NCBI GenBank assembly: GCA_035295545.1
Contig: DATGIT010000010.1
Coordinates: 76,513-140,512, forward strand
Direction of reading: 5' to 3'
Length of the DNA: 64,000 nt
Source of the DNA: Candidatus Binataceae bacterium
Lineage (GTDB): Bacteria > Desulfobacterota > Binatia > Binatales > Binataceae
The notes under the pieces are model-generated. The model was not told the origin of the DNA. It saw only the letters and a program-made list of their open reading frames with translations, and searched no databases. The position numbers and the translations under genes are program-made. This document shows, piece after piece, positions 13,119 through 59,168 of the stretch. Every line of letters begins with the position of its first letter. Position 1 is the stretch's first letter.

Positions 13119-13195
13119 GCGCCGTTAGCTCAGCGGATTAGAGCATCAGACTACGGATCTGAGGGTCGGGGGTTCAAATCCCTCACGGCGCGCCA
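13119..13195 (+). tRNA. tRNA-Arg (anticodon ACG)
   Basis: 77-nt cloverleaf read directly: acceptor GCGCCGT/ACGGCGC, D-arm GCTC...GAGC, anticodon stem TCAGA/TCTGA with loop CTACGGA (anticodon ACG), T-arm GGGGG-TTCAAAT-CCCTC, discriminator G and encoded CCA. Confidence 0.85.
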
Positions 13196-13899
13196 GTGCG
13201 TCAGCCATTTTCCAGCCTCCTGACCGAGCGACGCGTCGCCCGGCGTCACATAGTGCGCTTTGTGCTTTGACCTTTCGGGTGCTCCCTGAAACAGGTCAAA
13301 GTTGACGCCCTGGATCAGTATCGATCGCTTACCTGGATGATCTGCGTGCGACGGCGGCTCATGGCGGCGTCGGCGACGCCCTCCGGTCTCAGCTCTGGCC
13401 GGGTCAATGGGAAGGCAGCCAATCGCGCCTCGTTGGCGCCTCATTGAGGGGGGGCCGCTTTCAGTTTCATCATGGAACTAAAATTGCGGAAGAGCTGAGG
13501 CCATCGTTCGCGGTGGTTGCCGGCCGGACTCTACCCGGGTCCCCACTCGTGCGCTTCGGCGACCGTAGAGCAGCTTCCGAGCGTGAGATCCGGGGTCAGA
13601 GTTTTCCTCGTGGCGCGGCAGAATTCAGAGCAAATCAGCAAAATCACTGACCCAGAGAACGACGGCTCCGCTCGGGCTTGGACTTTTCGGGTCAGCCTGG
13701 GTTTGGTGTCTCAGAGTCTATTCTGCAATTCGTAGGCGACGTTTTGAGCTTCACTGCATTCTTTCAACAAAATAGGCGATATTTCCGGATATTTATTTTC
13801 AGAAAATAATGAAAATTCTGTGTACAGATTGATAAACAATAGAGTTGTAAAATGAAGTGAACATGAGCTATGAAAAACTGGTAAAGCTAAACTGGTCAG

Positions 13900-14094
13900 A
13901 TGATCGGCATTTCATGGATGCACAAGACCATGACAAAGTGTAAACAGAAGTCATTACATCAAAAAGATAAGATTAAGAAGGTCTGGCATAAACCGACGAT
14001 CTCCGACTACGGTCATGTGTCGGAGCTAACAGCCGGAACCGTCGGTTCGCACACGGACAAAGGGCACTGCTCGAATCATCATGGCGGCGGCTGA
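13900..14094 (+). CDS. Candidate RiPP precursor peptide with lasso-peptide-like leader and core (64 aa; alternative starts at 13918 and 13930)
   Basis: Sits in a roughly 400-bp AT-rich islet. Lys-rich leader ends ...KVWHKPTISDYGHVSELTA, which matches the lasso leader pattern (Y/W)-x-x-P-x-(L/I)-x3-G-x5-T-x. The predicted core GTVGSHTDKGHCSNHHGGG is 19 aa with Gly1 and Asp8. A 10-bp hairpin follows immediately. No B/C maturation genes are nearby, so the call is tentative. Confidence 0.4.
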   Translation: MIGISWMHKTMTKCKQKSLHQKDKIKKVWHKPTISDYGHVSELTAGTVGSHTDKGHCSNHHGGG

Positions 14095-14108
14095 GCCGCC
14101 ACATCGCA

Positions 14109-14134
14109 TCTCTCGATCAGGCTCGATCGAGAGA
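14109..14134 (+). terminator. Strong stem-loop (10-bp perfect stem TCTCTCGATC / GATCGAGAGA, 6-nt loop) 15 nt after the precursor stop; no U-tract
   Basis: Inverted repeat read directly from sequence. Comparable in position to the A-B intergenic hairpins of RiPP clusters that stabilise precursor mRNA, or a weak terminator. Coordinates are within about 1 nt. Confidence 0.4.
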
Positions 14135-14418
14135 CCGTGTCAGGGGCGCAAAAGTTCGATCGATCCGCGTTCGGCGAATGCGTATGTCCCGATGCGTATG
14201 TCTCGGGCGCGCGCGCTCGCGGTTGCAGGCTTGCGCGCGCGTGGCAACGGGTGCGTCGACCTGCCTCCAGGATGAGGCCCGTCGGAATGCATCGGCCGAG
14301 ACGCGCAAACGAGCGAAGCGGAAGACTCGATCCTTGATTGAAAATCGAGCTTGCGGATGTGGGCCGAGAAGCGAGCGGATGCGCGCTCCGGTCGTTTCGC
14401 GCTTCCTCCTCGCGGGCT

Positions 14419-15075
14419 TCAGAACATGCCCGGGGCCAACCGCCAGCGCACCCGTTGTCGGTAGGCCAGGTATTGCGGATCGCGAGCGAGCAATTCTTCC
14501 TCGAGCGCGATACGCCAGACCATGAACGGGATCGTGAGCGCCACCAACGCGACATTGCGGATGCTGGGGGCGGCTAGCGACGTACCCAATGCGCTCAGCA
14601 GCCAGGCCGCGTACACCGGATGGCGAATCATTCGAAAGGGACCGCGCACCACGAGGCCGCGGTTGGCCGGGAGCAATCCGAAACGACGGCCCAGGTAAAG
14701 CCATCCGATCAGCATCAGCGAGAGACCAGTCGCCTGAAGGATCACGCCGGTTGCCTCCAGCGTCGGCCAGTTCGTAGCGGTGAAGCGCGTCGCCGGGCGC
14801 ATCAGGAGCGGCAGCACCATCATCGCCGTCACCGAGACCAGCGCCTGGTAATCGGTTCGGGCTTCGCGCGGCGCCAGCCGCGTCAACGACAGCACGGCCA
14901 TCGTCAGCGCGGCGGCGGTCCAGATCCAGGCGGAGAGATTCGCGCGCCAGTCTTCCGACGTTGTCGACAGCAACTGCGGCCACCAGGGCACCAGAGTCGC
15001 CACGAACGTTGCCGCTACGCCAAGATTGGCCGCGGCGTGAAGCAGATGGGATTGGCGCGACCGGCCCGGCCTCAC
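14419..15075 (-). CDS. Isoprenylcysteine carboxyl methyltransferase (ICMT/PEMT) family membrane methyltransferase
   Basis: C-terminal ICMT-like motif region (GLVVRGPFRMIRHPVYAAWLLSALG...EEELLARDPQYLAYRQRV) preceded by hydrophobic TM segments. The track ORF extends to 15483, but that N-terminal extension is low-complexity and unlikely to be coding. Proposed GTG start near 15075. Start is uncertain. Confidence 0.55.
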   Translation of the reverse strand: MRPGRSRQSHLLHAAANLGVAATFVATLVPWWPQLLSTTSEDWRANLSAWIWTAAALTMAVLSLTRLAPREARTDYQALVSVTAMMVLPLLMRPATRFTATNWPTLEATGVILQATGLSLMLIGWLYLGRRFGLLPANRGLVVRGPFRMIRHPVYAAWLLSALGTSLAAPSIRNVALVALTIPFMVWRIALEEELLARDPQYLAYRQRVRWRLAPGMF

Positions 15076-15367
15076 TGGCGCACGGCGCGGGTCGCCCGAA
15101 GCTGCGACCGTGGCTGGTAAGCGCTCCACGGGAAAATCACGCTGCGATTGAGGATCATCTGCCAAGGCTAATAGCAGCAAACCGTTGACCGGGAAACGAC
15201 ACAGCCCGGGTACGGACCACGGACTTTCGGTCACGCAAGCGGATCGGGAGCCGGGTTCGGCTGTAGGTATTCGAGCCAGTTGAGCGTAGGATGATGGGTT
15301 CACGCGGCAGCTTCCGCGTCGCCGATGCGCTCCGCACCAATCGCAGAGCCATCGGAAAATCCAAAGC

Positions 15368-17797: not shown

Positions 17798-18493
17798 TCA
17801 CACGCCGGCGAACCAGTCGTAGCCCTGATCCTCCCAGTAGCCGCCGGTGCGATGGGGCAGGAAGTTCACTTCCGTCAGGTACTTGACACTCTTGTAGCCG
17901 AGCTTGATCGCCGAATACAGGCGTAGCGGCGCGCCGTGGTCCGGATGCAGCTCGTGGCCGTTCATGCCGTACGCGAGCAGCGTTTGCGGATGCATTGCGC
18001 TCGCGAGATCCCACGACGACCAGTAGTTCGCGTCGAACGAACGGAACTCGACGTAACGCACGCGCGGGTCGATCCCGACCCGCCGCGCCAGCTCGCTCAC
18101 GCGCACGCCCTGCCACGAGGCCACCGCCGACCATCCCTCGACGCAGTGATGCCGCACACGCATCTCGCTGCGCGGCATTGCCTGCAACTGCGCGAGCGTG
18201 AAAACTCCCGGCCGCGCGACCATGCCGCCGACCTTGAGCGTCCACACCGCCGGCGCAAGCGGCATCGCATCCGAGATGAAGTAGCGGGGAAACGCATCTT
18301 CGGGGGTGAGCGCGCTTGCCGGCTCCTCCGGCGCCAGCCGGGTCGGTGAGAAGAGCAGGCTTTCGAAGTGCTCGTTGACGCGCTGCATGCCCTTGAGAAA
18401 CGCCGCGACCGGATGGCCGCCCTCGCATCCGCCGAGCAGCGACGCCGCCGCGAACCCGGCGAGTAGCCCGCGCCGCGTAATCGGCTTAGTCAC
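17798..18493 (-). CDS. Sulfite-oxidase-family molybdopterin oxidoreductase (YedY/MsrP-like catalytic subunit), Tat-exported
   Basis: Twin-arginine signal (TRRGLLAGFAAASLLGG). Mo-cofactor domain with conserved Cys (RVRHHCVEGWS). Overlaps the upstream cytochrome b gene by 8 nt. Confidence 0.75.
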   Translation of the reverse strand: MTKPITRRGLLAGFAAASLLGGCEGGHPVAAFLKGMQRVNEHFESLLFSPTRLAPEEPASALTPEDAFPRYFISDAMPLAPAVWTLKVGGMVARPGVFTLAQLQAMPRSEMRVRHHCVEGWSAVASWQGVRVSELARRVGIDPRVRYVEFRSFDANYWSSWDLASAMHPQTLLAYGMNGHELHPDHGAPLRLYSAIKLGYKSVKYLTEVNFLPHRTGGYWEDQGYDWFAGV

Positions 18494-19202
18494 GACCGCC
18501 TCCCGTGATCATCGCGAGCAGGTCGCGCGGATGCAGCAGCACCAGCGTGAGATGCGTGAGCACGAAAAGCGCGATCAGCACCAGCCCCAGCAAATGCACA
18601 ACGCGCGCCGCATCATAGCCGCCGAACAGCGCCAACAGCCAGTGCAGCTGGACCGGCTTGTAAATAACCAGTCCCGAGAGCACCTGCAGCGCGATGATAA
18701 TCACGATCGAGCTGTACGCGAAGCGCTGCAGCCCGTTGTAAAACTCGGGCGGCGGAGCGGTCCGGCGTACGCGCAGATAGTAGCCCAACATCCTGGCGGC
18801 GTTGACGGCGTCGCGCGCCGGCAGGAACATCCGTCGCCGCCACTCGCCGCGTGTGAAAAAATAGGCGAGATAAATCGCGCCGTTCATCACCAGCAGCCAC
18901 GCGATCGCGAAATGCCATTGCCGTCCGCCGGCGAGCCATCCCCCGAGCCTTGACCATTGCGGCGGAGCGACATCCTGCCACGGGTACCATGCGTATTGCG
19001 CGCCTTGCGGCCCGAGCGACGGGTAGGCGGCGAAAATCTGCAACCCGCTGCCCGCCATCAGGACGATAAATACCGCATTCAGCCAATGGTTGAGCCGGAT
19101 GATCAGAGGCTGAGCGCGGCGTCCGCGAAATCGCGAAACGGCGGACGGCTTTGCGCCTTCGCTGCATTTCACCGCCGCGCCGGTTTGCGCCGCGCCACTC
19201 AT
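18486..19202 (-). CDS. Cytochrome b561-family membrane haem protein (PF01292-like)
   Basis: RLNHWLNAVFIVLMAGSGLQIF His-containing first TM helix and four TM helices. Start reassigned to the ATG at 19202, which forms an ATGA overlap with the stop of the upstream small gene. The 95-aa N-terminal extension in the track ORF is rejected. Confidence 0.65.
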   Translation of the reverse strand: MSGAAQTGAAVKCSEGAKPSAVSRFRGRRAQPLIIRLNHWLNAVFIVLMAGSGLQIFAAYPSLGPQGAQYAWYPWQDVAPPQWSRLGGWLAGGRQWHFAIAWLLVMNGAIYLAYFFTRGEWRRRMFLPARDAVNAARMLGYYLRVRRTAPPPEFYNGLQRFAYSSIVIIIALQVLSGLVIYKPVQLHWLLALFGGYDAARVVHLLGLVLIALFVLTHLTLVLLHPRDLLAMITGGGRD

Positions 19203-19525
19203 TTGCCGTTCATGCCTTCGGGCCGCATCATTGCCCTGGGCTTGCCGCCTTCCATGATCTCGCCATCCGTCATTACCACTTGGCCGTCCTTGAGCTGCCG
19301 GCGTCGGCCGTCCGGCAGACGCACCTCGCCGTTGGGCGCGACCACCGCGCCATTGGACATCGTAACCGCCGCGGCGATCGGTTCGGTGGCTTTGCCGCTT
19401 TTCACGATCATCACTTTGCCTGCGCGCATAATCAGACCGTCGATGCCATCCGATTGCGCGCGGCCGGGAGCGCTCAAGATCGCGCACATCGCCGCAACAA
19501 TGATAGTTACTGTTTGCCCCCGCAT
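19199..19525 (-). CDS. Small secreted protein of unknown function (108 aa, signal peptide)
   Basis: N-terminal signal peptide (MRGQTVTIIVAAMCAILSAPGRAQS). Gly/Val-rich repetitive mature region. Translationally coupled (ATGA) to the cytochrome b561 gene. Confidence 0.5.
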   Translation of the reverse strand: MRGQTVTIIVAAMCAILSAPGRAQSDGIDGLIMRAGKVMIVKSGKATEPIAAAVTMSNGAVVAPNGEVRLPDGRRRQLKDGQVVMTDGEIMEGGKPRAMMRPEGMNGK

Positions 19526-19565: not shown

Positions 19566-20045
19566 CTAAATCGAGCGCTCCATCCGGCGATGCATGATCC
19601 CGGCTTCCTCGAACATCTCGCCGACCGGGACAAAGCCCTGCTTGCAGTAAAATTCCTCGGCGTGAAGCTGCGCGTCGAGCACCGCGCGACGAAATCCGGC
19701 GTTTCTCGCGCGCTCCATAAGGAACAGCAGCAACCGGCGCCCGATACCTCTGCCGCGCTGCTCCCGCATGACGGCCATCCGGCCGATCTTCACGTAGTCA
19801 TCGTGCGCGACCATGCGTCCGCATCCGACCGGCCGCCCGTCTTGCAGCGCCAGCGCATGAATCGCGCGCGCGTCGTCCTCGTCGAGTTCTATTTCTTCAG
19901 GTACGCCTTGTTCTTCGATAAACACCCGCCGGCGGATCGCCCACGCCTCGGCCATGCGCGTTCGATCGCCGGCGACCTCGAGCACGACGATTTGCGCGCG
20001 GCCGCCCATCGCTTCTGCACTACCGCGCACAGAAGGATATCGCAA
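19566..20045 (-). CDS. GNAT family N-acetyltransferase
   Basis: Acetyl-CoA binding motif region (REQRGRGIGRRLLLFLMERARNAGFRRAVLDAQ). Confidence 0.7.
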   Translation of the reverse strand: MRYPSVRGSAEAMGGRAQIVVLEVAGDRTRMAEAWAIRRRVFIEEQGVPEEIELDEDDARAIHALALQDGRPVGCGRMVAHDDYVKIGRMAVMREQRGRGIGRRLLLFLMERARNAGFRRAVLDAQLHAEEFYCKQGFVPVGEMFEEAGIMHRRMERSI

Positions 20046-20154: not shown

Positions 20155-20952
20155 ATGGCGAAGGACGCCCAAAGGGCGAGCGACGAGCAGATACTCGAAG
20201 CGGCGGAAATGCTGCTCGCGGCGCGCTATCCGATCGCGCTGACCGGCGCCGGAATGTCGGTCGAAAGCGGGATTCCGCCGTTTCGCGGGCCGGGCGGGCT
20301 GTGGACCAAGTACGGCGAGCCGCCGATGAACGGCTACCAGATTTTCCTCGCCGATCCCAGGAAGGGATGGGAGGACCGGATCAGGCGCCAGGACGACGAG
20401 CTGTTTGCGCCGCTCAAGGTGGCCGAGCCCAATCCCGGACATCATGCCTTCGTCGAGCTCGAGCGGTTGGGCGTGCTGCGCTTTCTCATCACGCAGAACG
20501 TTGACGATCTTCATCGCCGCGCCGGCCATCGGGCGCTGGCCGAGATTCACGGCAACTGGAAGCTCATCCGATGCCTCGAGTGCGGAAGGCGGTTTCCGGC
20601 CGAGGAAATCAGCCTCGAGATTCTGCCGCCACCGTGTCCGAAATGCGGCGGACTGCTCAAGGCGGACACGGTCTCGTTTGGCGAGCCCATCCCGCCCGAC
20701 GTTCTGCGCGAGTGCGCCGACCATTCGGCGCGCGCCGACCTGGTGATCCTGGGCGGCACCTCGGCGACGGTCTATCCGGCAGCCGGCTTCGCGATCGAGG
20801 TCAAGGAGCGCGGAGGCAAGCTGATCGAGGTGAACCTCTACAACTCCGAGATCACCGCGCTTTGCGATCTGAGCCTGCGCGGCGGAGCGGCCGACGTGAT
20901 GCCGCGATTGAGCCGCGCGATCGCCGAGCGCCGCCGCGCCCGCATGTCGTAA
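20155..20952 (+). CDS. NAD-dependent protein deacylase (sirtuin, Sir2 family)
   Basis: GAGMSVESGIPPFRG NAD-binding motif. Zn ribbon CxxC...CxxC (CLECG...CPKCGG). Catalytic His. Confidence 0.85.
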   Translation: MAKDAQRASDEQILEAAEMLLAARYPIALTGAGMSVESGIPPFRGPGGLWTKYGEPPMNGYQIFLADPRKGWEDRIRRQDDELFAPLKVAEPNPGHHAFVELERLGVLRFLITQNVDDLHRRAGHRALAEIHGNWKLIRCLECGRRFPAEEISLEILPPPCPKCGGLLKADTVSFGEPIPPDVLRECADHSARADLVILGGTSATVYPAAGFAIEVKERGGKLIEVNLYNSEITALCDLSLRGGAADVMPRLSRAIAERRRARMS

Positions 20953-21089
20953 GCTCGATTTTCATTTTTCAATTTCGTTCTCCGCCCGGACCGGCCGTCC
21001 CGCATCGGCAGGGCACGCCGTTTGCTGTTGAGCCCTGCGCTTTCAAGCGCCTCGCTCGAAAGCATGGGAGCTTGTGCGAGGTGGATGCG

Positions 21090-22574
21090 ATGGATGCACA
21101 GCGGGCGGGCAGTGCGGTGCCCGGTTTGCAGGCAACGACAGCCGAGCCGCAGCCGCTCAACGAGATGTTCGACGCGCAGGGCCGCTCGCGGCCCGAGTGC
21201 GCGCGCGTCATCGCTTACCTGCTGGCGCTCGGACCGGGCAGGCTGGCGGAACTCGGCGAGCGCGCGCATCGCATGTTCCGCACGATGGGCGTGACGTTCA
21301 AGGTCTATGGCGATCATGAAGGCGGCGAACGCATCTTTCCCTTCGACCCGATCCCGCGCATTATTGCGGCTCCGGTCTGGGCCGAACTCGAAGCCGGCCT
21401 GATCCAACGCGCGCGGGCGCTGAACGCCTTCGTGGCCGACATCTATGCCGAGGCGCAAATCGTCAGGGACGGTGTCGTTCCGCGCGATCTCATAGTCGGT
21501 TCGCCGCAATTCCGCCATGCGGCGACCGGTATTCTGCCGCCGGGCGGCGTCTACATTACGGTTGCGGGAATCGACCTCGTGCGCGGCGCCGACAGCCGCT
21601 TCCATGTGCTCGAGGACAACGTGCGCACGCCCTCGGGCGTGTCGTACGTGATCGAGAACCGGCGCATCATGACGCGGCTGATGCCGGAGCTGATTCGCGG
21701 CCTGCGCGTCAGCAGCGTCGAGAACTATCCCGCCTACCTGCTCGCCGCGCTGCGCGAGATCGCGCCGTCCGGCATCGGCGACCCGACGGTGGCGCTGCTC
21801 ACGCCGGGCCCCTTCAATTCGGCGTTCTTCGAGCATGTGTTCCTGTCGCAGCAGATGGGCATCGAGCTGGTCGAGGGCCGCGACCTGGTCTGCGTCGATC
21901 ACAAGCTCTTCATGAAGACCGTGTACGGCCTTAAGCGGGTCGACGTGCTCTACCGCAGGATCGACGACGACTTTCTCGACCCGGTCGTGTTCCGTCCCGA
22001 TTCGATGCTGGGTGTTGCCGGTCTGACGGCCGTGCTGCGCGCGGGCAACGCGACGCTGGCCAACGCGATCGGCACCGGCGTCGCCGATGACAAGGCGGTT
22101 TACGCGTATACGCCGGCGATGATCCGTTACTACCTGGGCGAGTCCGCGCTGCTGCCGATTGTCGAGACCCATCTGTTGCGCGATCCCGACGTGCGGCAGA
22201 CGGTGCTGCGCGATCTCGATCGTTACGTGGTCAAACCCACCGGCGCCTCGGGCGGCTACGGCGTCGTCATCGGGCCCCGTGCGACGGACGAGGAGCTGGC
22301 GCAGGCGCGCAAACGGATCGAGGCCGCGCCGGCCGGTTTCATCGCCCAGCCGCTCTTTCCGCTCTCGGTGCATCCGACGCTCACCGGCGAGACGGTTGAC
22401 GGAAAGCCGGCGATGGCTTCGCGCCACGTCGATCTGCGGCCGTTCGTGCTGCTCGGGGCAAAGCCGCGCGTGCTCGCCGGCGGACTGACGCGGGTCGCGC
22501 TGCGCGAAGGATCGCTGATTGTGAACTCGTCGCAGGGCGGGGGCAGCAAAGATACCTGGGTGCTGGAGGAATAG
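21090..22574 (+). CDS. Circularly permuted ATP-grasp protein (COG2308/DUF404-type amidoligase)
   Basis: ATG at 21090 in frame with track ORF 20571..22574, about 494 aa. Characteristic length and gene neighbourhood. The upstream part of the track ORF overlaps the sirtuin. Confidence 0.75.
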   Translation: MDAQRAGSAVPGLQATTAEPQPLNEMFDAQGRSRPECARVIAYLLALGPGRLAELGERAHRMFRTMGVTFKVYGDHEGGERIFPFDPIPRIIAAPVWAELEAGLIQRARALNAFVADIYAEAQIVRDGVVPRDLIVGSPQFRHAATGILPPGGVYITVAGIDLVRGADSRFHVLEDNVRTPSGVSYVIENRRIMTRLMPELIRGLRVSSVENYPAYLLAALREIAPSGIGDPTVALLTPGPFNSAFFEHVFLSQQMGIELVEGRDLVCVDHKLFMKTVYGLKRVDVLYRRIDDDFLDPVVFRPDSMLGVAGLTAVLRAGNATLANAIGTGVADDKAVYAYTPAMIRYYLGESALLPIVETHLLRDPDVRQTVLRDLDRYVVKPTGASGGYGVVIGPRATDEELAQARKRIEAAPAGFIAQPLFPLSVHPTLTGETVDGKPAMASRHVDLRPFVLLGAKPRVLAGGLTRVALREGSLIVNSSQGGGSKDTWVLEE

Positions 22575-23518
22575 TGCTGCGGCGGATTGCGGGGTCGTTG
22601 TTCTGGGCGGCGCGTTATCTCGAACGCGCGCAATGGCGCGCGCGCCTGGTCGACGTCAACTACCATCTGCTGCTCGAGGTGCCGCCGCGCGACGCCGACC
22701 CCTGGGAGCCGCTGGTGCGGATCACCGCCGAGCACGACCTGTTCGCGGCCAAGCACAGCCACGCCGGCGAGACCGCGGTGATCGACTTCTTCGTCTTCGA
22801 TCGGGAGCACCGTTCTTCGATCCGCAGTTGCATCGAGGCGGTGCGGGCCAATCTGAGCCCGCTGCGCCATCTCATTTCCTCCGAGCTGTGGCTTGCGGTG
22901 AATCGGCTCTATCTCGAGGTCCAGGGATGGTCGGCGCAGACGCTGGCGGCCGGCGGCGTGTCGAATTTTTTTACCGAGCTCAAGCGGCACTTCTTTATGC
23001 TCGAGGGCATCGTTGCCCACACGATGCCGCGCGACCTGACGTACGACGTGATCGAGCTGGGCACGATGCTCGAGCGGCTCGACAACGTCTCGCGCCTCCT
23101 CGACGTGAAGTACCATTACCTGCTGCCGCGCCTCGAGGACATCGGCGGCCCGGCGGACCTGCGCCAGTGGGCCGCGGTGCTGCGCAGCGCGTCGGCCTTC
23201 GAGGCTTTTCGCCGATGCTACGGCAACGCCATCCGCGTGAACCGAGTGGTGGCGATCCTGGTCTTCGATCCGGAGTTTCCGCGCTCGATGCGCTTTTGCA
23301 TCGAACGCGCCGCGCAGGCGCTCGAGCGGATTTCAGTGCGGCAAGAGAGCTCGGCACCGTCCGCCGCCGCGCCCTGCGCGGAGCTGCTGGCGATACTGGG
23401 TCGGGGCGACGCCGATACGACCATCGAATCCGGATTGCACGAATTTCTGATCGACGCCGAGCGGCGATGCGCACAACTGGCCGACCGCGTGTTCGATCGC
23501 TACATGGCGCTGGAATAG
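22574..23518 (+). CDS. Alpha-E domain protein (COG2307/DUF403)
   Basis: Start overlaps the ATP-grasp stop (TAGTG). 314-aa all-alpha protein. Obligate partner of the circularly permuted ATP-grasp. Confidence 0.75.
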   Translation: MLRRIAGSLFWAARYLERAQWRARLVDVNYHLLLEVPPRDADPWEPLVRITAEHDLFAAKHSHAGETAVIDFFVFDREHRSSIRSCIEAVRANLSPLRHLISSELWLAVNRLYLEVQGWSAQTLAAGGVSNFFTELKRHFFMLEGIVAHTMPRDLTYDVIELGTMLERLDNVSRLLDVKYHYLLPRLEDIGGPADLRQWAAVLRSASAFEAFRRCYGNAIRVNRVVAILVFDPEFPRSMRFCIERAAQALERISVRQESSAPSAAAPCAELLAILGRGDADTTIESGLHEFLIDAERRCAQLADRVFDRYMALE

Positions 23519-23528
23519 GCTTTGGCCG

Positions 23529-24431
23529 ATGCTGGTGCGGATAAGCCATACCACCCGCTTCGTGTACGACGAGCCGGCCGCCGATTCGCACAACGACCTG
23601 CGGCTGCGTCCGCTCGACGACGCCGGCCAGCGCTGTCTCGAGTTCGAGCTGAGCGTCAGCCGGCCCGCCGCGGTGCTCGCGTACCGTGACTTCTTCGGCA
23701 ATGCGGCGCATTCGGTATCCGTCAGCGCTCCGCACCGCGAACTGACCATCGTGGCACGCTCGCTGGTCGACCGCGTGGACCCGCCGATGAAGCGTCATCC
23801 GGCGACGGCCTTCGATGACTTTCTTGCCGCCGACGACCGACATCTCAGGGATTTCTGCGAATTCCTCGGCGCCAGCCTTTACGTTCCGTTCAGCGAACGT
23901 CTGCAGCGGCTGTTCTGGATGGCGCGGCCGCGCGAGAGCGAGGACGTCGCCGGCTACGTGGCGCGAATCGTCGCCTGGGTCCGCGACCAGTTCGATTACC
24001 AGAAAGCGCGCACCCACGTTCACTCCAACCTGGACGACATCCTGAAAACCGGCAGCGGCGTATGCCAGGATTTTGCCCATCTCACCATTGGCATCCTGCG
24101 CCTGGCCGGAGTTCCCGCAAGGTACGTCTCCGGCTACCTGGCGCCGGCTACATCATCCGGCGGCGGCCCGTTGGGCGAACAGGCGAGCCATGCATGGCTC
24201 GAGGCATGGCTGCCGCATGCGGGATGGACCGGCTTCGATCCGACGCATCGCTACCGCACCGACGAGCGCCATATCCGGATGGCGGTCGGGCGCGATTACG
24301 GCGACGTGCCGCCGCTGCGCGGGATGTACCGGAGCAATGGAGCGAGCCAGGCAATGACGATCGATCTCAAGATCGAGCCCGCCGCCGCGGCCTGCGGCGT
24401 CGGCGCTGCGCCGGGCTGCCAGGCGCAATGA
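23529..24431 (+). CDS. Transglutaminase-like cysteine peptidase domain protein (COG1305)
   Basis: Catalytic Cys motif GVCQDFAHLTIGILRLAGVPARYVSGY and downstream His/Asp. Third member of the conserved triad. Confidence 0.8.
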   Translation: MLVRISHTTRFVYDEPAADSHNDLRLRPLDDAGQRCLEFELSVSRPAAVLAYRDFFGNAAHSVSVSAPHRELTIVARSLVDRVDPPMKRHPATAFDDFLAADDRHLRDFCEFLGASLYVPFSERLQRLFWMARPRESEDVAGYVARIVAWVRDQFDYQKARTHVHSNLDDILKTGSGVCQDFAHLTIGILRLAGVPARYVSGYLAPATSSGGGPLGEQASHAWLEAWLPHAGWTGFDPTHRYRTDERHIRMAVGRDYGDVPPLRGMYRSNGASQAMTIDLKIEPAAAACGVGAAPGCQAQ

Positions 24432-24534
24432 GCGCATCGAGAGCCGCCGCCGCGCGAAGCGTCGCGCGGGCGGCGTCCGCATCCGGCAGCGCGGCTTCCG
24501 CGCCGATTGGCCGACAGGCGGCGCGCGCGCCGGC

Positions 24535-25614
24535 CTAAGGCCGGCGCAAGTCCTGGATGATTTCGCGCGCCGCGCCGCGATCGTGCTCGGTGCGGATCGG
24601 AATTTCGAATTCGAAGCGATTGACGTCGGCGAGGCGCTTCTTCATGACGTCCGCGATTTCACGGTAGGTGCCCACGACGGCGAACGCGCGCACCATCTCC
24701 TCGCTGACCAGGCCCGCCATCTCGCGCCATTTCTGCTGCACCGACAGCCGATGAAGCTGCTCGGCGCGATCGCCCCATCCCTCGAGCTCGAAACTTGCGC
24801 GGTACGAGCGCGTCGAGCCGTAGAACGCGACCGTCTGCTTCATCTTCTCGACCGCGCGTGCGAGCGAGCCGCTGTCGGGCGCGGTGCAGAGAAAGGCGCC
24901 GCCGGAAACCTGGAAGTTTTTCCATTCGCCATCCGAGCGACCCGCGCGCGCGAATCCCTTGCGCAAATTGGGAAAGGCGATTTCGTCGAGATAGCGGCGC
25001 GTGCAGATGCCGTGCAGGCGGACGCCATCGCACACCTCGCCCGCGACCTGCAGCATGCGCTCCTGCACCGCTGCGATCAGCACCGGAATGCGCGGATTGG
25101 CCAGTGGCGGCGGAGCGAAGTTGGGCGTCATCAGCGAGAGCTTGTAGTGCTCGCTCTGAAAATCCAGCGGCGCTCCGGTCTGCCATGCGTTCCAGCACGC
25201 GCGCATCGCCCCGACGTAATCCTTCATCCTCTGCGCCGGCCTGGTGAAGGGCATGCCGAAACGGCGCGTGATGTGGCCCTTCACCTGCGAACCCAGCCCG
25301 AGCACGAGCCTGCCCCCGCTCATGCGCTGCAGGTCCCACGCGGTGTATGCGGTCGCGACCGGGCTGCGCGTGAACGCGAGCGCGATGCCGGTAGCCAGTT
25401 CGATGCGCGAAGGCTCCTGCGCCGCGATCGCCAGCATCAGGTAGGGATCGTGCTGGGTCTCGACCGCAACGACCGTGTCGTAGCCCAGCGCATCGGATTC
25501 GCGCACCTGTTCGCGCAGCGCGGCCCAGCTTGGCTCGGGTCTGCCGCCCGCGCCCATTTCGGGCGTGTAAGCGGCGCCGAGATTGAGCATGCGCTCGATT
25601 TTCTTCCCTGCCAT
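24535..25614 (-). CDS. LLM-class (luciferase-like) flavin/F420-dependent oxidoreductase
   Basis: TIM-barrel LLM family features across the full 359 aa. Confidence 0.8.
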   Translation of the reverse strand: MAGKKIERMLNLGAAYTPEMGAGGRPEPSWAALREQVRESDALGYDTVVAVETQHDPYLMLAIAAQEPSRIELATGIALAFTRSPVATAYTAWDLQRMSGGRLVLGLGSQVKGHITRRFGMPFTRPAQRMKDYVGAMRACWNAWQTGAPLDFQSEHYKLSLMTPNFAPPPLANPRIPVLIAAVQERMLQVAGEVCDGVRLHGICTRRYLDEIAFPNLRKGFARAGRSDGEWKNFQVSGGAFLCTAPDSGSLARAVEKMKQTVAFYGSTRSYRASFELEGWGDRAEQLHRLSVQQKWREMAGLVSEEMVRAFAVVGTYREIADVMKKRLADVNRFEFEIPIRTEHDRGAAREIIQDLRRP

Positions 25615-28286: not shown

Positions 28287-28488
28287 GGGGCGTGCATCTT
28301 ACCGTTAGGATGCAGTGTGGTAAAAGAGTTTCGAGCGTCGGCGAGGAATCCGCTATATTTTTGTAACACAACCTCGTCGCGGAGATGAACCCTCGCGATT
28401 CGATCGGCCGGCTGTCTTGCCTGCCGCCGAGGCTCATGGTTTTTTGTCTGCTGTAGGCATTGCGCCCACGCATCGGGAAAAATCTGCA

Positions 28489-29184
28489 ATGAAGGTGAAT
28501 CGTACGGCTGCCGGCAGGTGGGCGATTTGGATCGCCGTGTGCGTGCTCTCTTTGTTTGCCGGCTGTTACGCCGGAGTATGGGGAGAAAAGGAGCATTGGA
28601 GCACCGCCGACACCGCCTTGGGTGAAGAGCATGAGGTCAATTATTCGGCTCACGACGCTTATCTGCTGACTCAGGACGCGCTGCGCGGCGATGGCATTCT
28701 GTACGAGGTCGGACCGGACAACACCTTGCAGACGCTGTGGCGCAATGCCGATTACCAGGTCGGGCTCATGCAGAACCTGATGGGTGTGCAGCCGCGCTAC
28801 CGTTACGAAATTCAGGTCGTCCCCGAGGGCCCAAAAAAAAGCAAAATCGTGGTCAACGTCCACACCGAAGCCATCCCCGACAATCAGATCGCCGACTACA
28901 AGGCGAGCAAGCGCTTCGCGCTCTTCGGCGAAATCGACGAACTGGCCGCCAAATACCCGCCCGCTTCGACGACGCCGGCATCGGGTGGCGTCAATTTCAC
29001 ATTGCTGCCGAATGAAGACCTGAAAGGATTGGCGAAGCGGGTGACCGGCAACGAGGACAACTGGCGTCAGATCGCCAAGGACAACAGCCTGAATTCACCC
29101 ACCGATGTCACGCCCTTCCAGAGCATCTGGGTGGCCAACACCCTGCTCAAAAAGGCGCCCGACAAGGCCGCCTCGACCGACTGA
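28489..29184 (+). CDS. Putative lipoprotein with C-terminal LysM-like domain
   Basis: ATG at 28489 gives the signal MKVNRTAAGRWAIWIAVCVLSLFAGC (lipobox). The C-terminal DLKGLAKRVTGNEDNWRQIAKDNSL...IWVANTLL resembles LysM. Lower GC than surrounding genes. Confidence 0.5.
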   Translation: MKVNRTAAGRWAIWIAVCVLSLFAGCYAGVWGEKEHWSTADTALGEEHEVNYSAHDAYLLTQDALRGDGILYEVGPDNTLQTLWRNADYQVGLMQNLMGVQPRYRYEIQVVPEGPKKSKIVVNVHTEAIPDNQIADYKASKRFALFGEIDELAAKYPPASTTPASGGVNFTLLPNEDLKGLAKRVTGNEDNWRQIAKDNSLNSPTDVTPFQSIWVANTLLKKAPDKAASTD

Positions 29185-29267
29185 GAGCGGCGCTCGAAAG
29201 GTCCGCCTCGATTATGCTCCAGTCGCCGCTTCGGCAGGGGGAAATCGCGTGAAAGTGGAGAAGTGAT

Positions 29268-29621
29268 TCAGTCGCTGGTCTGGATGCCGTCGCCGGCGTC
29301 GTATTCCGGACAGAGGCCGTTTGGGCTGACGGCGGCAACCACCGTCAGGAACTGTTCGAACGTCATCTGCAGGTTGAGAAAGCCGCCCTGGCAGAAAACC
29401 CAGCCGTAATAGTCCAGGATTTCATCTGGGATCATCAGTGGCAGTCGCGGCAGACTCGATACGATCGGGAATCGACGGGGAGCATCCAAACGGGACAGGT
29501 TATCGTCTGCGTGGGAGCTCCCATCGATAATGACGTTGGTCTCGCGCAGAGCCACGAGGTTCGGCTTCCCAACATGGACAGCCGCTGCCCACGTCCCTGA
29601 CTTGCTCGCTGAAGCCACCAT
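29268..29621 (-). CDS. Hypothetical protein (117 aa)
   Basis: Good Shine-Dalgarno (AGGA) 5 nt upstream of the ATG. No recognisable domain. Lower-GC region. Confidence 0.4.
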   Translation of the reverse strand: MVASASKSGTWAAAVHVGKPNLVALRETNVIIDGSSHADDNLSRLDAPRRFPIVSSLPRLPLMIPDEILDYYGWVFCQGGFLNLQMTFEQFLTVVAAVSPNGLCPEYDAGDGIQTSD

Positions 29622-29738
29622 GTCATCCTATGCAGGTTTTGGCCGCTTGCCAAGGGTATCGGCCGAGTGCCGCCGTCTTATAACCAATCAGGACGTCAAT
29701 TGAAAATCGCGCGTCGGAGGCTAAATAGCTGAAAAATA

Positions 29739-30524
29739 ATGATTTCACATCTTCATGCAATCATCCTGGGAGCTGTGCAGGGACTTGCAGAGTTCCTCCC
29801 GATCTCAAGTTCTGCCCATCTCGTGTTCGTACCCTGGCTATTCGGATGGGAAGACCCCGGGCTGGCCTTCGATGTGGCGTTACATCTGGGCACGCTGCTC
29901 GCGCTGCTCATCTACTACCGCAGAGAATGGCTTGCGATGGCGCAGTCGCTGGTGGCGGGCGAGCCCAATCAGCGCCGGCTGCTTCTGCTACTGATAACGG
30001 CCTCGATCCCCGGCGCGATAATCGGTCTTGCCTTCGAGAAGCAGGCCGAAACCACCTTCCGTTCGCCGCTGCTGATTGCGGTCGCATTAGCGGCGCTTGC
30101 AGTTCTGCTGTGGCTTTTCGATAAAATTTCGCCACAGAAGCGATCTATGAGCGAAATGACGTTCTGGGACGCTCTGGCGATCGGACTCAGCCAGGCGTTG
30201 GCAATCGTCCCCGGAGTTTCCCGCTCCGGCGCCACGATCACGATGGCGCGCGCGATGCGGGTCGAGCGCGGCGACGCGGCGAATTTCTCCTTCCTGATGG
30301 CGACGCCGATCATAGCGGGAGCGGGCCTGGTCGAGGCGCGCAAGCTCGTGCACGAGGGGATAGATTGGTCGGTCGGGCTGGGCTTCATTTCCGCAGCAGT
30401 TTTCGGCCTGCTCGCGATCGCGGTGCTCATCAGATATGTGCGGACGCGCGACTATGTCGTGTTCGCGGTCTATCGGCTTGTGGTCGCTGCGCTGGTGATC
30501 GCCGTCTTTTTCATCCGTGGATGA
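29739..30524 (+). CDS. uppP: Undecaprenyl-diphosphate phosphatase
   Basis: BacA family motifs (GAVQGLAEFLPISSSAHL; GVSRSGATI). 8 TM helices. Confidence 0.85.
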   Translation: MISHLHAIILGAVQGLAEFLPISSSAHLVFVPWLFGWEDPGLAFDVALHLGTLLALLIYYRREWLAMAQSLVAGEPNQRRLLLLLITASIPGAIIGLAFEKQAETTFRSPLLIAVALAALAVLLWLFDKISPQKRSMSEMTFWDALAIGLSQALAIVPGVSRSGATITMARAMRVERGDAANFSFLMATPIIAGAGLVEARKLVHEGIDWSVGLGFISAAVFGLLAIAVLIRYVRTRDYVVFAVYRLVVAALVIAVFFIRG

Positions 30525-42023: not shown

Positions 42024-43034
42024 TTAGAGCTTCGGTCCGATCTCTTTGCCGAAGGTGTGAATCGCCTGCTTGGTGCGCTCGTGCGAGGGGCCGCCCGGAT
42101 GGCGCATGCGCAGCACCAGGTAGTCCGGTTGCACTTCGCGCTGCCACATCTGCAGTTGTTCAAGGCAATCGCTGGGCGAGCCGACGATGAGCCGGTTGGG
42201 CGCGGCCACGTCGATCGTCCACTGGTCTTCGGACTTGACCTTGGCCAGCACCTCGTCGGGCGCGTAGCCGTTGTTGCGGTAGTAGAACTTGTGCGTGTAC
42301 ATCAGCGGACCGCTCTCGCGCCGCGCCGCGTCCATCGTTTCCGCCACCATCATGTCGCGCATCAGGACCAGGTACGGCTTCTTGCCGTGCTTTTTGCACT
42401 CGGCACGGTAGAGATCGGCGAAGCGCTTGATCACCTTCACATGTTCAAGCGGTGAAGTGATCCAGGCGTCGGCGATTCTCGCCACGCGCTTGATTCCCAC
42501 GTCGCTCCACGCGGCCATCCAGATCGGCGGCCGTGGCTTCTGCAGCGGCTTGGGCGTGATCATGACGTTGTCGAGCTGGTAGAACTTGCCGCTGTAGGAG
42601 AAGCGCTCCTGCTCCCAGCAGCGCTTGAGCACCTCGACGCCTTCCTCGCTGCGGCCAGCGCGCTCCTTGATCGAGAGCCCGAAGGCGCTGAAGTCGCGCT
42701 CCTGGTAACCGACGCCGACGCTCAGGATCATGCGGCCGCCGGTTATCTGATCGACGATCGCGGCATCTTCGGCCGCATGCACCGGATGCCACAGCGGGAT
42801 CAGCGTGACGCAGGTGCCGACCTTGATCTTTTTGGTGCACACCCCGACCATCCCGGCCATCAGGATGACGTTGGGGATGTAGCAGTCTTCCTGCTGATGG
42901 TGTTCGCTGAACAGGCAGCTGTCGAAGCCGCTTTCCTCGGCGACCTGCGCCTCGACGATAGCCTCGCGCAGCACGCCGCCGATGTTCGCGCCGTTGGGCG
43001 GGTCCTGGGTACACGGAAAATAGCCGACCTTCAT
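42024..43034 (-). CDS. LLM-class flavin-dependent oxidoreductase
   Basis: Luciferase-like TIM barrel throughout. 336 aa. Confidence 0.75.
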   Translation of the reverse strand: MKVGYFPCTQDPPNGANIGGVLREAIVEAQVAEESGFDSCLFSEHHQQEDCYIPNVILMAGMVGVCTKKIKVGTCVTLIPLWHPVHAAEDAAIVDQITGGRMILSVGVGYQERDFSAFGLSIKERAGRSEEGVEVLKRCWEQERFSYSGKFYQLDNVMITPKPLQKPRPPIWMAAWSDVGIKRVARIADAWITSPLEHVKVIKRFADLYRAECKKHGKKPYLVLMRDMMVAETMDAARRESGPLMYTHKFYYRNNGYAPDEVLAKVKSEDQWTIDVAAPNRLIVGSPSDCLEQLQMWQREVQPDYLVLRMRHPGGPSHERTKQAIHTFGKEIGPKL

Positions 43035-43135
43035 TGATGTTCCTCCCCAAGCTTGCTTACGAGTTTAGGTGCTCCAGTGCGGCTCGAATGTCAAATTCCG
43101 ACGTGAGCCGGCCGTGTCAGCCGCGCCTTCGGCCC

Positions 43136-57917: not shown

Positions 57918-59039
<1,122 letters not shown>

Positions 59040-59168
59040 CGATCGATTCTTAGCAAAGCGCGCCCGCGCACGCATCACGCCCGGGCGAAATCCCTCGCTT
59101 GCCGGGCATGCTCGCAAGGCGTTACAAGGGATGAGACAACCCCGCGCAGGGCTGGCAGGAGGACGCGT

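What the first reader, a model, noticed from the sequence alone, without database searches (positions are those of the whole stretch)
21090..24431. Circularly-permuted ATP-grasp / alpha-E / transglutaminase-like triad: predicted peptide-ligase modification system of unknown target
Three co-directional, overlapping or tightly spaced genes (COG2308-COG2307-COG1305 architecture). Comparative genomics (Iyer, Aravind and co-workers) predicts this triad acts as an amidoligase/peptide-tagging system with an associated protease-like transglutaminase. No substrate or physiological role has been shown experimentally. Here it sits between a sirtuin and an LLM oxidoreductase, with no obvious cargo peptide gene.
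Basis: partly seen in the sequence, partly recalled or inferred. Interest (0 to 1): 0.6.

Follow-up and report, generated by a model that had tools for sequence, protein, structure and literature searches.

The report
Conserved ligase, helper, peptidase gene trio
Three tightly linked genes of an uncultured soil bacterium (Binatota) encode an ATP-using bond-forming enzyme, its helical partner and a cysteine peptidase; the trio is real and intact, but it is one more copy of a widespread, already described system whose substrate nobody has found, and here it appears to be switched on from a sigma-54 promoter.

Summary
Genes at 21090-22574, 22574-23518 and 23529-24431 (+) match the circularly permuted ATP-grasp, Alpha-E and transglutaminase-like (TGL) families with E-values of 1e-151, 2e-81 and 2e-25/4e-24. 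The TGL Cys-His-Asp triad and both Alpha-E 'ER' motifs are conserved. The gene order holds in about 80 genomes from at least seven phyla, so it is a genuine operon. It is also a known kind: the core of the 'Anbu operon', which Iyer/Aravind predicted to be an amidoligase/peptide-tagging system. This copy lacks both Anbu and the DUF2126 ligase. The sirtuin and LLM neighbours are conserved only in the closest relatives, so they are incidental. No conserved small 'cargo' ORF flanks the trio. New here is a sigma-54-type -24/-12 element (21011-21026), 64 nt upstream of the start codon. It is kept at that distance in related Binatia despite diverged flanks, and it occurs upstream of the trio in 26/80 loci against about 1 expected. 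This fits the published NtrC/sigma-54 (nitrogen limitation) control in Burkholderia and Pseudomonas. Substrate and role remain unknown. Verdict: a real but ordinary member of a known, uncharacterised system, of moderate-to-low interest.

The parts
21011..21026 (+). sigma-54-type promoter element (-24 GG / -12 GC): GGGCACGccgtTTGCT. It lies 64 nt upstream of the ATP-grasp start codon.
   Evidence: This is the only match in the 64-kb window to TGGCACG-N4-TTGCW with at most 1 mismatch. That count alone is not significant, since 0.54 matches are expected. The same element sits at the same distance in Binatia loci L004-L007, and a close variant in L008-L010, with diverged flanks. Such an element lies upstream on the sense strand in 26/80 loci, against 1/80 antisense, a mean of 1.0 in shuffles and 0 in coding controls.
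21078..21084 (+). Shine-Dalgarno-like GAGGTGG, 5 nt before the ATG at 21090
   Evidence: Read directly from the sequence. It is conserved in the closest Binatia loci in alignment A1.
21090..22574 (+). circularly permuted ATP-grasp enzyme (494 aa), a predicted carboxylate-amine ligase
   Evidence: PF14403 E=1.5e-151 and PF04174 E=1.8e-138. PDB 3n6x E=1e-157 over residues 17-493. About 140 positions are at least 95% conserved over 81 sequences, including the C-terminal SSQGGGSKDTW. The same 494-aa gene call appears on public contigs.
22574..23518 (+). Alpha-E protein (314 aa), an all-helical internal duplication with two ER motifs; the presumed partner subunit of the ligase
23529..24431 (+). transglutaminase-like (papain-fold) cysteine enzyme (300 aa) with an N-terminal Bact_transglu_N domain
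   Evidence: PF08379 2e-25 and PF01841 3.8e-24. Cys179, His221 and Asp237 are at least 95% conserved in 67 sequences. There are weak PDB relatives, 3isr and 6g49.
24527..24547 (.). 9-bp G+C hairpin (GCGCCGGCC-taa-GGCCGGCGC) between the convergent TGL and LLM genes; a possible bidirectional terminator, weakly supported
   Evidence: The region as a whole does not fold better than shuffles (z=-0.97), there is no T-run, and the terminator scan found nothing here.

Best explanation
This is an intact chromosomal copy, in a Candidatus Binataceae (Binatota) bacterium, of the widespread CP-ATP-grasp / Alpha-E / transglutaminase-like operon. It is the minimal three-gene form, without Anbu and without the DUF2126 ligase. 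The proposed working is as follows. (1) The three genes are transcribed as one translationally coupled unit from their own sigma-54 promoter, so they stay silent until an enhancer-binding activator fires. By analogy with Burkholderia and Pseudomonas, the signal is most likely nitrogen limitation. (2) The ATP-grasp enzyme, working with Alpha-E as an obligatory partner, uses ATP to convert a carboxylate into an acyl-phosphate. It then joins that carboxylate to an amine, making a non-ribosomal amide (isopeptide) bond on a cytoplasmic peptide or protein encoded elsewhere in the genome. (3) The Cys179-His221-Asp237 enzyme hydrolyses or transfers that same kind of bond, which makes the modification reversible or processes its product. 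What is shown: gene content, order, coupling, conserved catalytic residues, and a conserved promoter motif. What is inferred: the chemistry (from ATP-grasp and papain-fold enzymology), the partnership with Alpha-E (from natural fusions and invariant adjacency), the inducing signal (from other phyla) and the nature of the target (not known).
For: Family identity. Catalytic and motif residues are conserved. Operon structure: the 1-nt stop/start overlap and 10-nt gap, and order kept in 79/80 and 61/73 loci from Binatota, Planctomycetota, Acidobacteriota, Acidimicrobiia, Proteobacteria, Bacteroidota and Chloroflexota. Rosetta-stone fusion of ATP-grasp and Alpha-E, 845 aa, in L031. Sigma-54 element: (26/80 sense against 1/80 antisense, about 1 expected). 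Literature: the B. cenocepacia cluster I35_5080-83 falls 6- to 9-fold in an ntrC mutant and is sigma-54 dependent (PMC5491218). A Bradyrhizobium CP_ATPgrasp_1 gene has a predicted RpoN site (PMC13207237). Anbu is up in N-limited P. putida (cited in PMC5666114). In marine metagenomes the abundance of these domains tracks urea-metabolism domains (PMC3597751). A Yersinia ATP-grasp orthologue releases Pi from ATP (PMC6376114). The TGL is predicted to reverse tags added by the ligase (PMC3495828). No signal peptide or membrane segment is visible in the three translations, so a cytoplasmic site of action is likely.
Against: No substrate, product or phenotype is known for any member. Co-expression and pull-downs in Yersinia found no stable complexes among the operon proteins (PMC6376114). 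The only enzymology on a TGL paralogue (Mtb Rv2569c) reports a general, cell-wall-associated protease insensitive to cysteine-protease inhibitors (PMC11081392), which does not fit a dedicated isopeptidase. The sigma-54 motif in the window is a single match that would not be significant on its own. I could not confirm that this organism encodes RpoN or identify the activator, and no upstream activator site was found. Read-through from the sirtuin gene cannot be excluded, because no terminator was detected. Protein and small-molecule targets cannot be told apart from sequence.
Confidence: 0.6

Rival explanations
1. Small-molecule nitrogen metabolism rather than protein tagging. The ATP-grasp/Alpha-E pair would ligate a free amino acid or peptide carboxylate to a free amine (polyamine, amino acid, ammonia-like acceptor), as glutathionylspermidine synthetase or gamma-glutamyl-polyamine synthetases do. 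The TGL enzyme would be the matching amidase, as in the synthetase/amidase pair of E. coli GspSA. The pathway would store, scavenge or detoxify nitrogen compounds under nitrogen limitation.
For: No tag or cargo gene is linked (PMC2588565 makes the same point for the Rv2566 family). The depositors named the closest solved homologue a putative glutathionylspermidine synthase. Sigma-54/NtrC control puts it alongside urea, nitrate and polyamine-uptake genes (PMC5491218). Its abundance co-varies with urea metabolism domains in marine metagenomes (PMC3597751). A papain-fold amidase paired with an ATP-grasp-type ligase is the GspSA logic (my own knowledge, not tested here).
Against: No Pfam hit to the GSP_synth family appeared at E<=0.001. 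Frequent linkage to a proteasome-like Anbu (PMC3235984) and, in two loci, to an N-end-rule transferase points to protein substrates. Mtb Rv2411c and Rv2567 did not make GABA-trehalose (bioRxiv 10.64898/2026.04.15.718621), which excludes only that one product.
Confidence: 0.3
2. The TGL protein is a stand-alone general or exported protease, like the reported Mtb Rv2569c activity, and its linkage to the ligase reflects co-regulation only, for example bulk protein breakdown for amino-acid recycling.
For: [quoted passage not shown] PMC6376114 raises non-specific degradation under nitrogen starvation as a possibility.
Against: The window protein has no signal peptide. The TGL gene keeps its position next to ATP-grasp/Alpha-E across phyla and is fused to an amidoligase domain in the long form, which argues for a shared substrate. 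The Rv2569c activity was insensitive to E-64 and NEM, although the family's invariant residues are Cys-His-Asp. I take this to mean that the reported activity may not come from the TGL active site; that is inference.
Confidence: 0.06
3. The triad works with its neighbours (GNAT acetyltransferase, sirtuin deacylase, LLM oxidoreductase) as one acyl-lysine modification module.
For: They are physically adjacent in the window: GNAT 19566-20045 (-), SIR2 20155-20952 (+), LLM 24535-25614 (-).
Against: SIR2 is adjacent only in the two closest MAGs (L004, L007). It is absent from the flanks of the next Binatia loci and of all other phyla. The orthologous LLM is adjacent only on contigs with 100% identical proteins. 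The triad has its own promoter.
Confidence: 0.02
4. A RiPP (graspetide-type) or Pup-like system with a genetically linked precursor or tag peptide, or an anti-phage defence system.
For: ATP-grasp enzymes do make graspetides, and ligase-plus-peptidase pairs occur in tagging systems.
Against: Among nine Binatia loci, no ORF of 25 aa or more is conserved outside the three genes. The upstream alignment conserves only the promoter and ribosome-binding site. There are no PADLOC hits. The setting is a housekeeping chromosomal region.
Confidence: 0.02

Closest known systems
'Anbu operon' of Proteobacteria and Cyanobacteria (ATP-grasp, alphaE, transglutaminase, Anbu; Valas & Bourne 2008 PMC3235984; Fuchs 2017 PMC5666114; Piasecka 2018 PMC6376114)
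   Same: It has the same three families in the same order, tightly linked. Nitrogen-limitation/sigma-54 control is reported for proteobacterial copies, and a sigma-54 motif is found here.
   Different: There is no Anbu (proteasome-like Ntn hydrolase) gene anywhere in the 64-kb window, whereas 10 of the 80 related loci have one within about 2 kb.
Iyer/Aravind predicted amidoligase-peptidase ('peptide-tagging') system (Mol BioSyst 2009, cited through PMC3495828, PMC5666114 and PMC6376114; the paper itself could not be fetched)
   Same: The defining domain set matches: CP ATP-grasp, Alpha-E and TGL peptidase. Its function is predicted, not demonstrated.
   Different: The fuller versions add a circularly permuted glutamine-synthetase-like ligase (DUF2126, fused to a TGL) and Anbu. 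Both are absent here.
Double system with DUF2126: B. cenocepacia I35_5080-83 (PMC5491218), Gimesia locus L031, Mtb Rv2566-Rv2569c region (PMC2588565 for Rv2566)
   Same: The first ATP-grasp/Alpha-E pair of these clusters is the closest paralogue of the window genes: 51-57% identity, against 28-37% for the second pair.
   Different: Those clusters continue with an 1124-aa TGL+DUF2126 protein, an ATP-grasp-Alpha-E fusion and a second TGL. The window stops after one short TGL.
M. tuberculosis Rv2411c-Rv2410c-Rv2409c
   Same: A minimal three-gene form without Anbu. Rv2411c is an uncharacterised ATP-binding protein that tested negative for GABA-trehalose synthesis (bioRxiv 10.64898/2026.04.15.718621).
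   Different: The host is an actinobacterium, a group that to my knowledge lacks sigma-54, so regulation must differ.
E. coli glutathionylspermidine synthetase/amidase (GspSA): a functional analogy only
   Same: An ATP-dependent carboxylate-amine ligase paired with a papain-fold Cys-His amidase acting on the same amide bond. The solved homologue 3n6x carries this name.
   Different: There is no hit to the GSP_synth Pfam family. The components are separate polypeptides, and an extra Alpha-E subunit is present. The substrate is unknown.
Pupylation (PafA/Dop/Pup) and tubulin TTL/deglutamylase systems: a functional analogy
   Same: Both use a ligase plus a reversing hydrolase acting on protein carboxylate-amine bonds.
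   Different: There is no Pup-like small gene, and the ligase fold differs from PafA. No proteasome or ATPase partner lies in the locus.

Membership tests
CP ATP-grasp / Alpha-E / TGL amidoligase operon (Iyer-Aravind system; Anbu-operon core) | Circularly permuted ATP-grasp gene (PF14403/PF04174) | tested here: met
   E=1.5e-151, full-length profile match; 3n6x, E=1e-157.
CP ATP-grasp / Alpha-E / TGL amidoligase operon (Iyer-Aravind system; Anbu-operon core) | Alpha-E gene (PF04168) with a conserved ER motif, immediately downstream on the same strand | tested here: met
   (E=1.7e-81). E17-R18 and E167-R168 are conserved. There is a 1-nt overlap with gene 1. The adjacency holds in 79/80 loci.
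CP ATP-grasp / Alpha-E / TGL amidoligase operon (Iyer-Aravind system; Anbu-operon core) | Transglutaminase-like papain-fold protein with an intact Cys-His-Asp triad in the same operon | tested here: met
   (PF08379 + PF01841). C179/H221/D237 are conserved. A TGL gene lies directly downstream of Alpha-E in 61/73 loci.
CP ATP-grasp / Alpha-E / TGL amidoligase operon (Iyer-Aravind system; Anbu-operon core) | ATP-dependent amide-bond formation, and its reversal by the TGL | not testable with these tools
   Published data cover only Pi release from ATP by a Yersinia orthologue (PMC6376114).
Full Anbu operon | Anbu (proteasome beta-like Ntn hydrolase) encoded in or next to the operon | tested here: not met
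   tblastn with the Anbu-like protein of L048 (PF00227) finds 10 related loci but nothing in the 64-kb window. Pfam scans of window genes found no proteasome domain.
Double amidoligase system (with DUF2126) | Long TGL+DUF2126 (GS-like amidoligase) protein and a second ATP-grasp/Alpha-E/TGL set | tested here: not met
   Both are present in L031 and others. In the window, a convergent LLM gene follows the TGL gene directly.
Glutathionylspermidine synthetase family | Match to the GSP_synth family model; CHAP amidase domain | tested here: not met
   Only the CP_ATPgrasp families were reported at E<=0.001, and NCBIfam gave no hit. The name of 3n6x is a depositor's guess.
Sigma-54-dependent promoter | -24 GG and -12 GC elements with the exact canonical spacing (TGGCACG-N4-TTGCW) upstream of the first gene, on the sense strand | tested here: met
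   GGGCACGccgtTTGCT at 21011-21026 matches 11 of 12 specified positions. It is conserved in Binatia and found in 26/80 loci against about 1 expected.
Sigma-54-dependent promoter | The host encodes RpoN and a cognate enhancer-binding protein with upstream activator sites | tested here: inconclusive
   No EBP or rpoN gene was seen among the window genes scanned, and no convincing upstream inverted repeat was found. The rest of the genome is not available.
Pup-like / RiPP tagging systems | Small tag or precursor peptide gene linked to the ligase | tested here: not met
   No conserved ORF of 25 aa or more lies outside the three genes in nine Binatia loci. The upstream alignment conserves only the promoter and ribosome-binding site.
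Known anti-phage defence systems | Match to a PADLOC model | tested here: not met
   no hits for any of the three proteins.

The most novel reading that the evidence does not exclude
The trio is a tag-gene-free protein-modification switch that is induced through sigma-54 when nitrogen runs short. ATP-grasp/Alpha-E would add a free amino acid or polyamine to carboxylates of selected proteins, and the TGL enzyme would remove or transfer it. This would mark proteins for recycling, by Anbu where present and by other proteases where not. That would make it a widespread bacterial counterpart of pupylation/ubiquitin-type turnover control. The occasional replacement of the TGL gene by an N-end-rule aminoacyl-transferase (L054, L076) would be a second pointer to regulated proteolysis.
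Probability: 0.2. Interest if true: 0.75.

Novelty: new member of a known kind. Interest (0 to 1): 0.35.

Why it matters
The trio belongs to one of the most widespread bacterial operons whose function is predicted but unproven. The Alpha-E query alone matches 4679 clusters at 50% identity. By my recollection the operon is also present in pathogens such as M. tuberculosis and Pseudomonas. Solving its chemistry would fill a real gap, and possibly reveal a new protein modification or a nitrogen-salvage pathway. This particular copy adds little to that goal. It comes from an uncultured Binatota bacterium, it is the simplest form of the operon, and its neighbours are uninformative. The useful lead from this work is regulatory. 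A sigma-54 promoter recurs in front of the operon across distant phyla, which says where to look: nitrogen-limited, RpoN/EBP-dependent conditions. It also offers a cheap experimental handle in tractable hosts.

Tried and rejected
The following checks led nowhere or ruled something out.

- **Other libraries.** NCBIfam and PADLOC gave no models for any of the three proteins.
- **Sigma-70 promoters and intrinsic terminators.** No promoter was found, and the three terminator-like sites lie inside coding sequence at chance frequency. The intergenic hairpin downstream is not better than shuffles.
- **Upstream activator sites.** Only two weak palindromes were found.
- **Cargo or tag peptide.** Nothing is conserved outside the three genes.
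- **Functional link to sirtuin, GNAT or LLM.** Rejected on synteny.
- **Anbu in the window.** None found.
- **Literature false leads.** The 'DUF403' hits were mostly prefix matches to DUF4033/DUF4037 and similar, for example in the HEPN paper. The Klebsiella CfmP ATP-grasp belongs to the unrelated TupA-like family. The GABA-trehalose paper used Rv2411c only as a negative candidate.
- **Iyer et al. 2009.** It could not be retrieved and is cited only through papers that summarise it.
Full report
**1. What is there**

The window is G+C-rich (about 66%, GC3 about 0.83). Its closest genomic relatives are metagenome-assembled genomes labelled Candidatus Binataceae or 'uncultured delta proteobacterium', with up to 86% amino-acid identity for the ATP-grasp protein. 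Contigs on which the three products are 100% identical occur in public metagenome assemblies. The organism is therefore an uncultured Binatota bacterium.

Three + strand genes sit at the reported coordinates: 21090-22574 (494 aa), 22574-23518 (314 aa, GTG start) and 23529-24431 (300 aa).

- Gene 1 matches CP_ATPgrasp_2 (E=1.5e-151) and CP_ATPgrasp_1.
- Gene 2 matches Alpha-E (E=1.7e-81).
- Gene 3 matches Bact_transglu_N plus Transglut_core (2e-25, 3.8e-24).
- Gene 1 aligns over its whole length with the structural-genomics entry 3n6x (E=1e-157), so the ATP-grasp fold rests on a solved close homologue.

The gene 1 stop (TAG) and the gene 2 start (GTG) share one base, with GGAGGA just upstream. 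Gene 3 starts 10 nt after the gene 2 stop. This indicates translational coupling.

**2. Is it functional and conserved?**

I extracted homologues from 80 genome loci and aligned them.

- The transglutaminase-like (TGL) protein keeps Cys179, His221 and Asp237, the papain-fold catalytic triad.
- Alpha-E keeps R14, E17, R18 and R24 in its first long helix, and E167 and R168 in the equivalent helix of its second half. The two halves are an internal duplication (E=9e-8).
- The ATP-grasp protein has about 140 near-invariant positions.

**3. Synteny**

The loci come from Binatota, Planctomycetota, Acidobacteriota, Acidimicrobiia, Alpha-, Gamma- and 'Delta'-proteobacteria, Bacteroidota and Chloroflexota. 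Alpha-E follows the ATP-grasp gene in 79/80 of them, and a TGL gene follows Alpha-E in 61/73 evaluable loci.

Variants of the architecture exist:

- Many loci carry a double system. In Gimesia L031 the order is ATP-grasp, Alpha-E, an 1124-aa TGL+DUF2126 'putative amidoligase', an 845-aa ATP-grasp-Alpha-E fusion, and a second TGL. That fusion is Rosetta-stone evidence that the ligase and Alpha-E act together.
- An Anbu-like proteasome homologue lies beside the genes in 10 loci.
- The window has neither addition. No Anbu relative exists anywhere in its 64 kb.

The window's neighbours are not part of the system. SIR2 is adjacent only in the two closest MAGs. The orthologous LLM and SHMT genes are adjacent only on contigs with 100% identical proteins. 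The wider setting is housekeeping: aspartokinase, mnmA, a miaB-like gene, rnc, era, der, glyA, coaBC and others.

Among nine Binatia loci nothing outside the three genes is conserved down to 25-aa ORFs. The upstream alignment conserves only a promoter and the ribosome-binding site. There is no linked cargo or tag gene.

**4. A sigma-54 promoter**

The 137-nt spacer between the sirtuin stop and the ATP-grasp start contains GGGCACGccgtTTGCT at 21011-21026. This matches the sigma-54 consensus TGGCACG-N4-TTGCW at 11 of 12 specified positions. It is the only such site in the window, but one site in 64 kb is not significant by itself (0.54 expected). The weight comes from comparison:

- The same element lies 64 nt upstream of the start codon in L004-L007, and a close variant (TGGCCCGtcgaTTGCT) lies upstream in L008-L010, while the surrounding sequence has diverged.
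- Across all 80 loci, an element with invariant GG/GC and at least 10/12 matches lies within 350 nt upstream on the sense strand in 26 loci.
- The controls are 1 locus on the antisense strand, a mean of 1.0 (maximum 4) in shuffled windows, and 0 in coding control windows.
- None of the five Acidimicrobiia loci has it. This fits my recollection, not checked here, that Actinobacteria lack sigma-54.

No sigma-70-like promoter was found.

This agrees with published data. The B. cenocepacia cluster I35_5080-83 (DUF404/407, DUF403, TGL, large TGL) is sigma-54- and NtrC-dependent under nitrogen limitation (PMC5491218). A Bradyrhizobium CP_ATPgrasp_1 gene has a predicted RpoN site (PMC13207237). Anbu rises in nitrogen-limited P. 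putida (cited in PMC5666114). These domains co-vary with urea-metabolism domains in marine metagenomes (PMC3597751).

I could not verify that this organism has rpoN or identify an activator site.

**5. How it most likely works**

Established enzymology says that ATP-grasp enzymes activate a carboxylate as an acyl-phosphate and pass it to an amine, and that papain-fold Cys-His-Asp enzymes hydrolyse or transfer amide bonds.

My best explanation is a sigma-54-gated operon with two activities. A heteromeric ATP-grasp/Alpha-E ligase makes a non-ribosomal amide bond on a cytoplasmic substrate encoded elsewhere. The TGL enzyme reverses or processes that bond. This is essentially the Iyer/Aravind prediction, as summarised in PMC3495828, PMC5666114 and PMC6376114, with a regulatory layer added.

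Whether the substrate is a protein or peptide (my preference, about 0.5-0.6) or a small nitrogen compound (about 0.3) cannot be settled from sequence.

- Linkage to Anbu, and in two Rhodospirillales loci to a Bpt/ATE aminoacyl-transferase, leans towards proteins.
- The missing tag gene, the GspS-like relatives and the nitrogen regulon lean towards metabolites.

Wet-lab data are thin. A Yersinia orthologue releases Pi from ATP but forms no detectable complexes (PMC6376114). Mtb Rv2411c and Rv2567 do not make GABA-trehalose (bioRxiv 10.64898/2026.04.15.718621). Mtb Rv2569c was reported as a broad protease that is insensitive to cysteine-protease inhibitors (PMC11081392), which sits awkwardly with the invariant Cys.

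**6. Comparison and membership**

The locus meets every testable defining feature of the CP-ATP-grasp/Alpha-E/TGL system. It fails the extra features of the full Anbu operon (no Anbu) and of the double DUF2126 system. It is not a glutathionylspermidine synthetase by family model, and it is not a Pup-like, RiPP or known defence system.

**7. Novelty and verdict**

This is a new member, in a little-studied phylum, of a known and widely distributed but biochemically unsolved system. It is not a new kind. A specialist would not be surprised by it, and this copy does not make the open question easier to test, because it comes from an uncultured organism.

The cross-phylum sigma-54 association is the one result that goes beyond the literature I could read, and it suggests concrete experiments. 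Interest is 0.35. The most novel reading still open is a nitrogen-starvation protein-tagging and recycling switch that uses no dedicated tag gene; I give it a probability of about 0.2.

Noticed in passing
window 19566-20045 (-) and 20155-20952 (+): A GNAT acetyltransferase and a CobB-type sirtuin are divergently arranged, which looks like an acetylation/deacylation pair. The pair is conserved with the triad only in the two closest MAGs (L004, L007).
   Followed up: partly
window 20958-20979: An AT-rich tract (attttcatttttcaatttcgtt) lies between the sirtuin stop and the sigma-54 element. It is absent from the aligned L004/L007 spacers. It could be a bending/IHF-type site or just an insertion.
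   Followed up: no
L054 10538-11266 and L076 10419-11189: In two Rhodospirillales loci the gene right after Alpha-E is a Bpt/arginyl-tRNA-protein-transferase-family enzyme (ATE_N+ATE_C, an N-end-rule aminoacyl-transferase) instead of a TGL. This may be a hint of a protein-turnover link, or it may be lineage-specific coincidence.
   Followed up: partly
L017 and seven other Acidobacteriaceae loci (e.g. L017 6196-6906 -, 7445-7924 +, 11763-12164 +): These loci carry a divergently transcribed Anbu-like gene upstream, a short 159-aa TGL-core-only ORF directly before the ATP-grasp gene, and a conserved 133-aa ORF with no Pfam match after the TGL gene.
   Followed up: partly
L048 10457-11230: In this Planctomycetaceae locus an Anbu-like proteasome homologue (PF00227, E=4e-5) directly follows Alpha-E, with no TGL gene in between.
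   Followed up: partly
L045 9389-13042: This is the only locus of 80 where the ATP-grasp and Alpha-E genes are separated, by about 3.6 kb. The insert was not examined.
   Followed up: no
window 22574-23518 (Alpha-E): Alpha-E is a tandem duplication of a helical module of about 150 aa. Each half begins with LER..R.L.DV.YH.LL (BLASTP of the two halves, E=9e-8). I did not find this stated in the papers I could read.
   Followed up: yes
window 24535-25614 (-) and 42024-43064 (-): There are two luciferase-like oxidoreductases. The first scores above the cut-off for the F420-dependent TIGR03617 family, which suggests cofactor F420 use in this Binatota genome.
   Followed up: no
window 17798-18508 (-) and 18486-19487 (-): A molybdopterin-oxidoreductase domain protein overlaps a cytochrome b561-type membrane protein, an MsrPQ-like pair. 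The cytochrome b gene also flanks the triad in L004 and L007.
   Followed up: no
window 57918-59183 (-): An AAA+ ATPase matches 'bpMoxR', the MoxR of MoxR-vWA-beta-propeller ternary systems (E=6e-56). Its partner genes and an overlapping + strand ORF (58788-60368) were not examined.
   Followed up: no
window 13119-13195 (+) and 13200-15290; 28300-30500: A tRNA-Arg(ACG) is followed by a stretch of lower G+C and weak coding signal. A second low-G+C stretch (0.59) lies at 28.3-30.5 kb before a BacA gene. Neither was explored for mobile elements.
   Followed up: no
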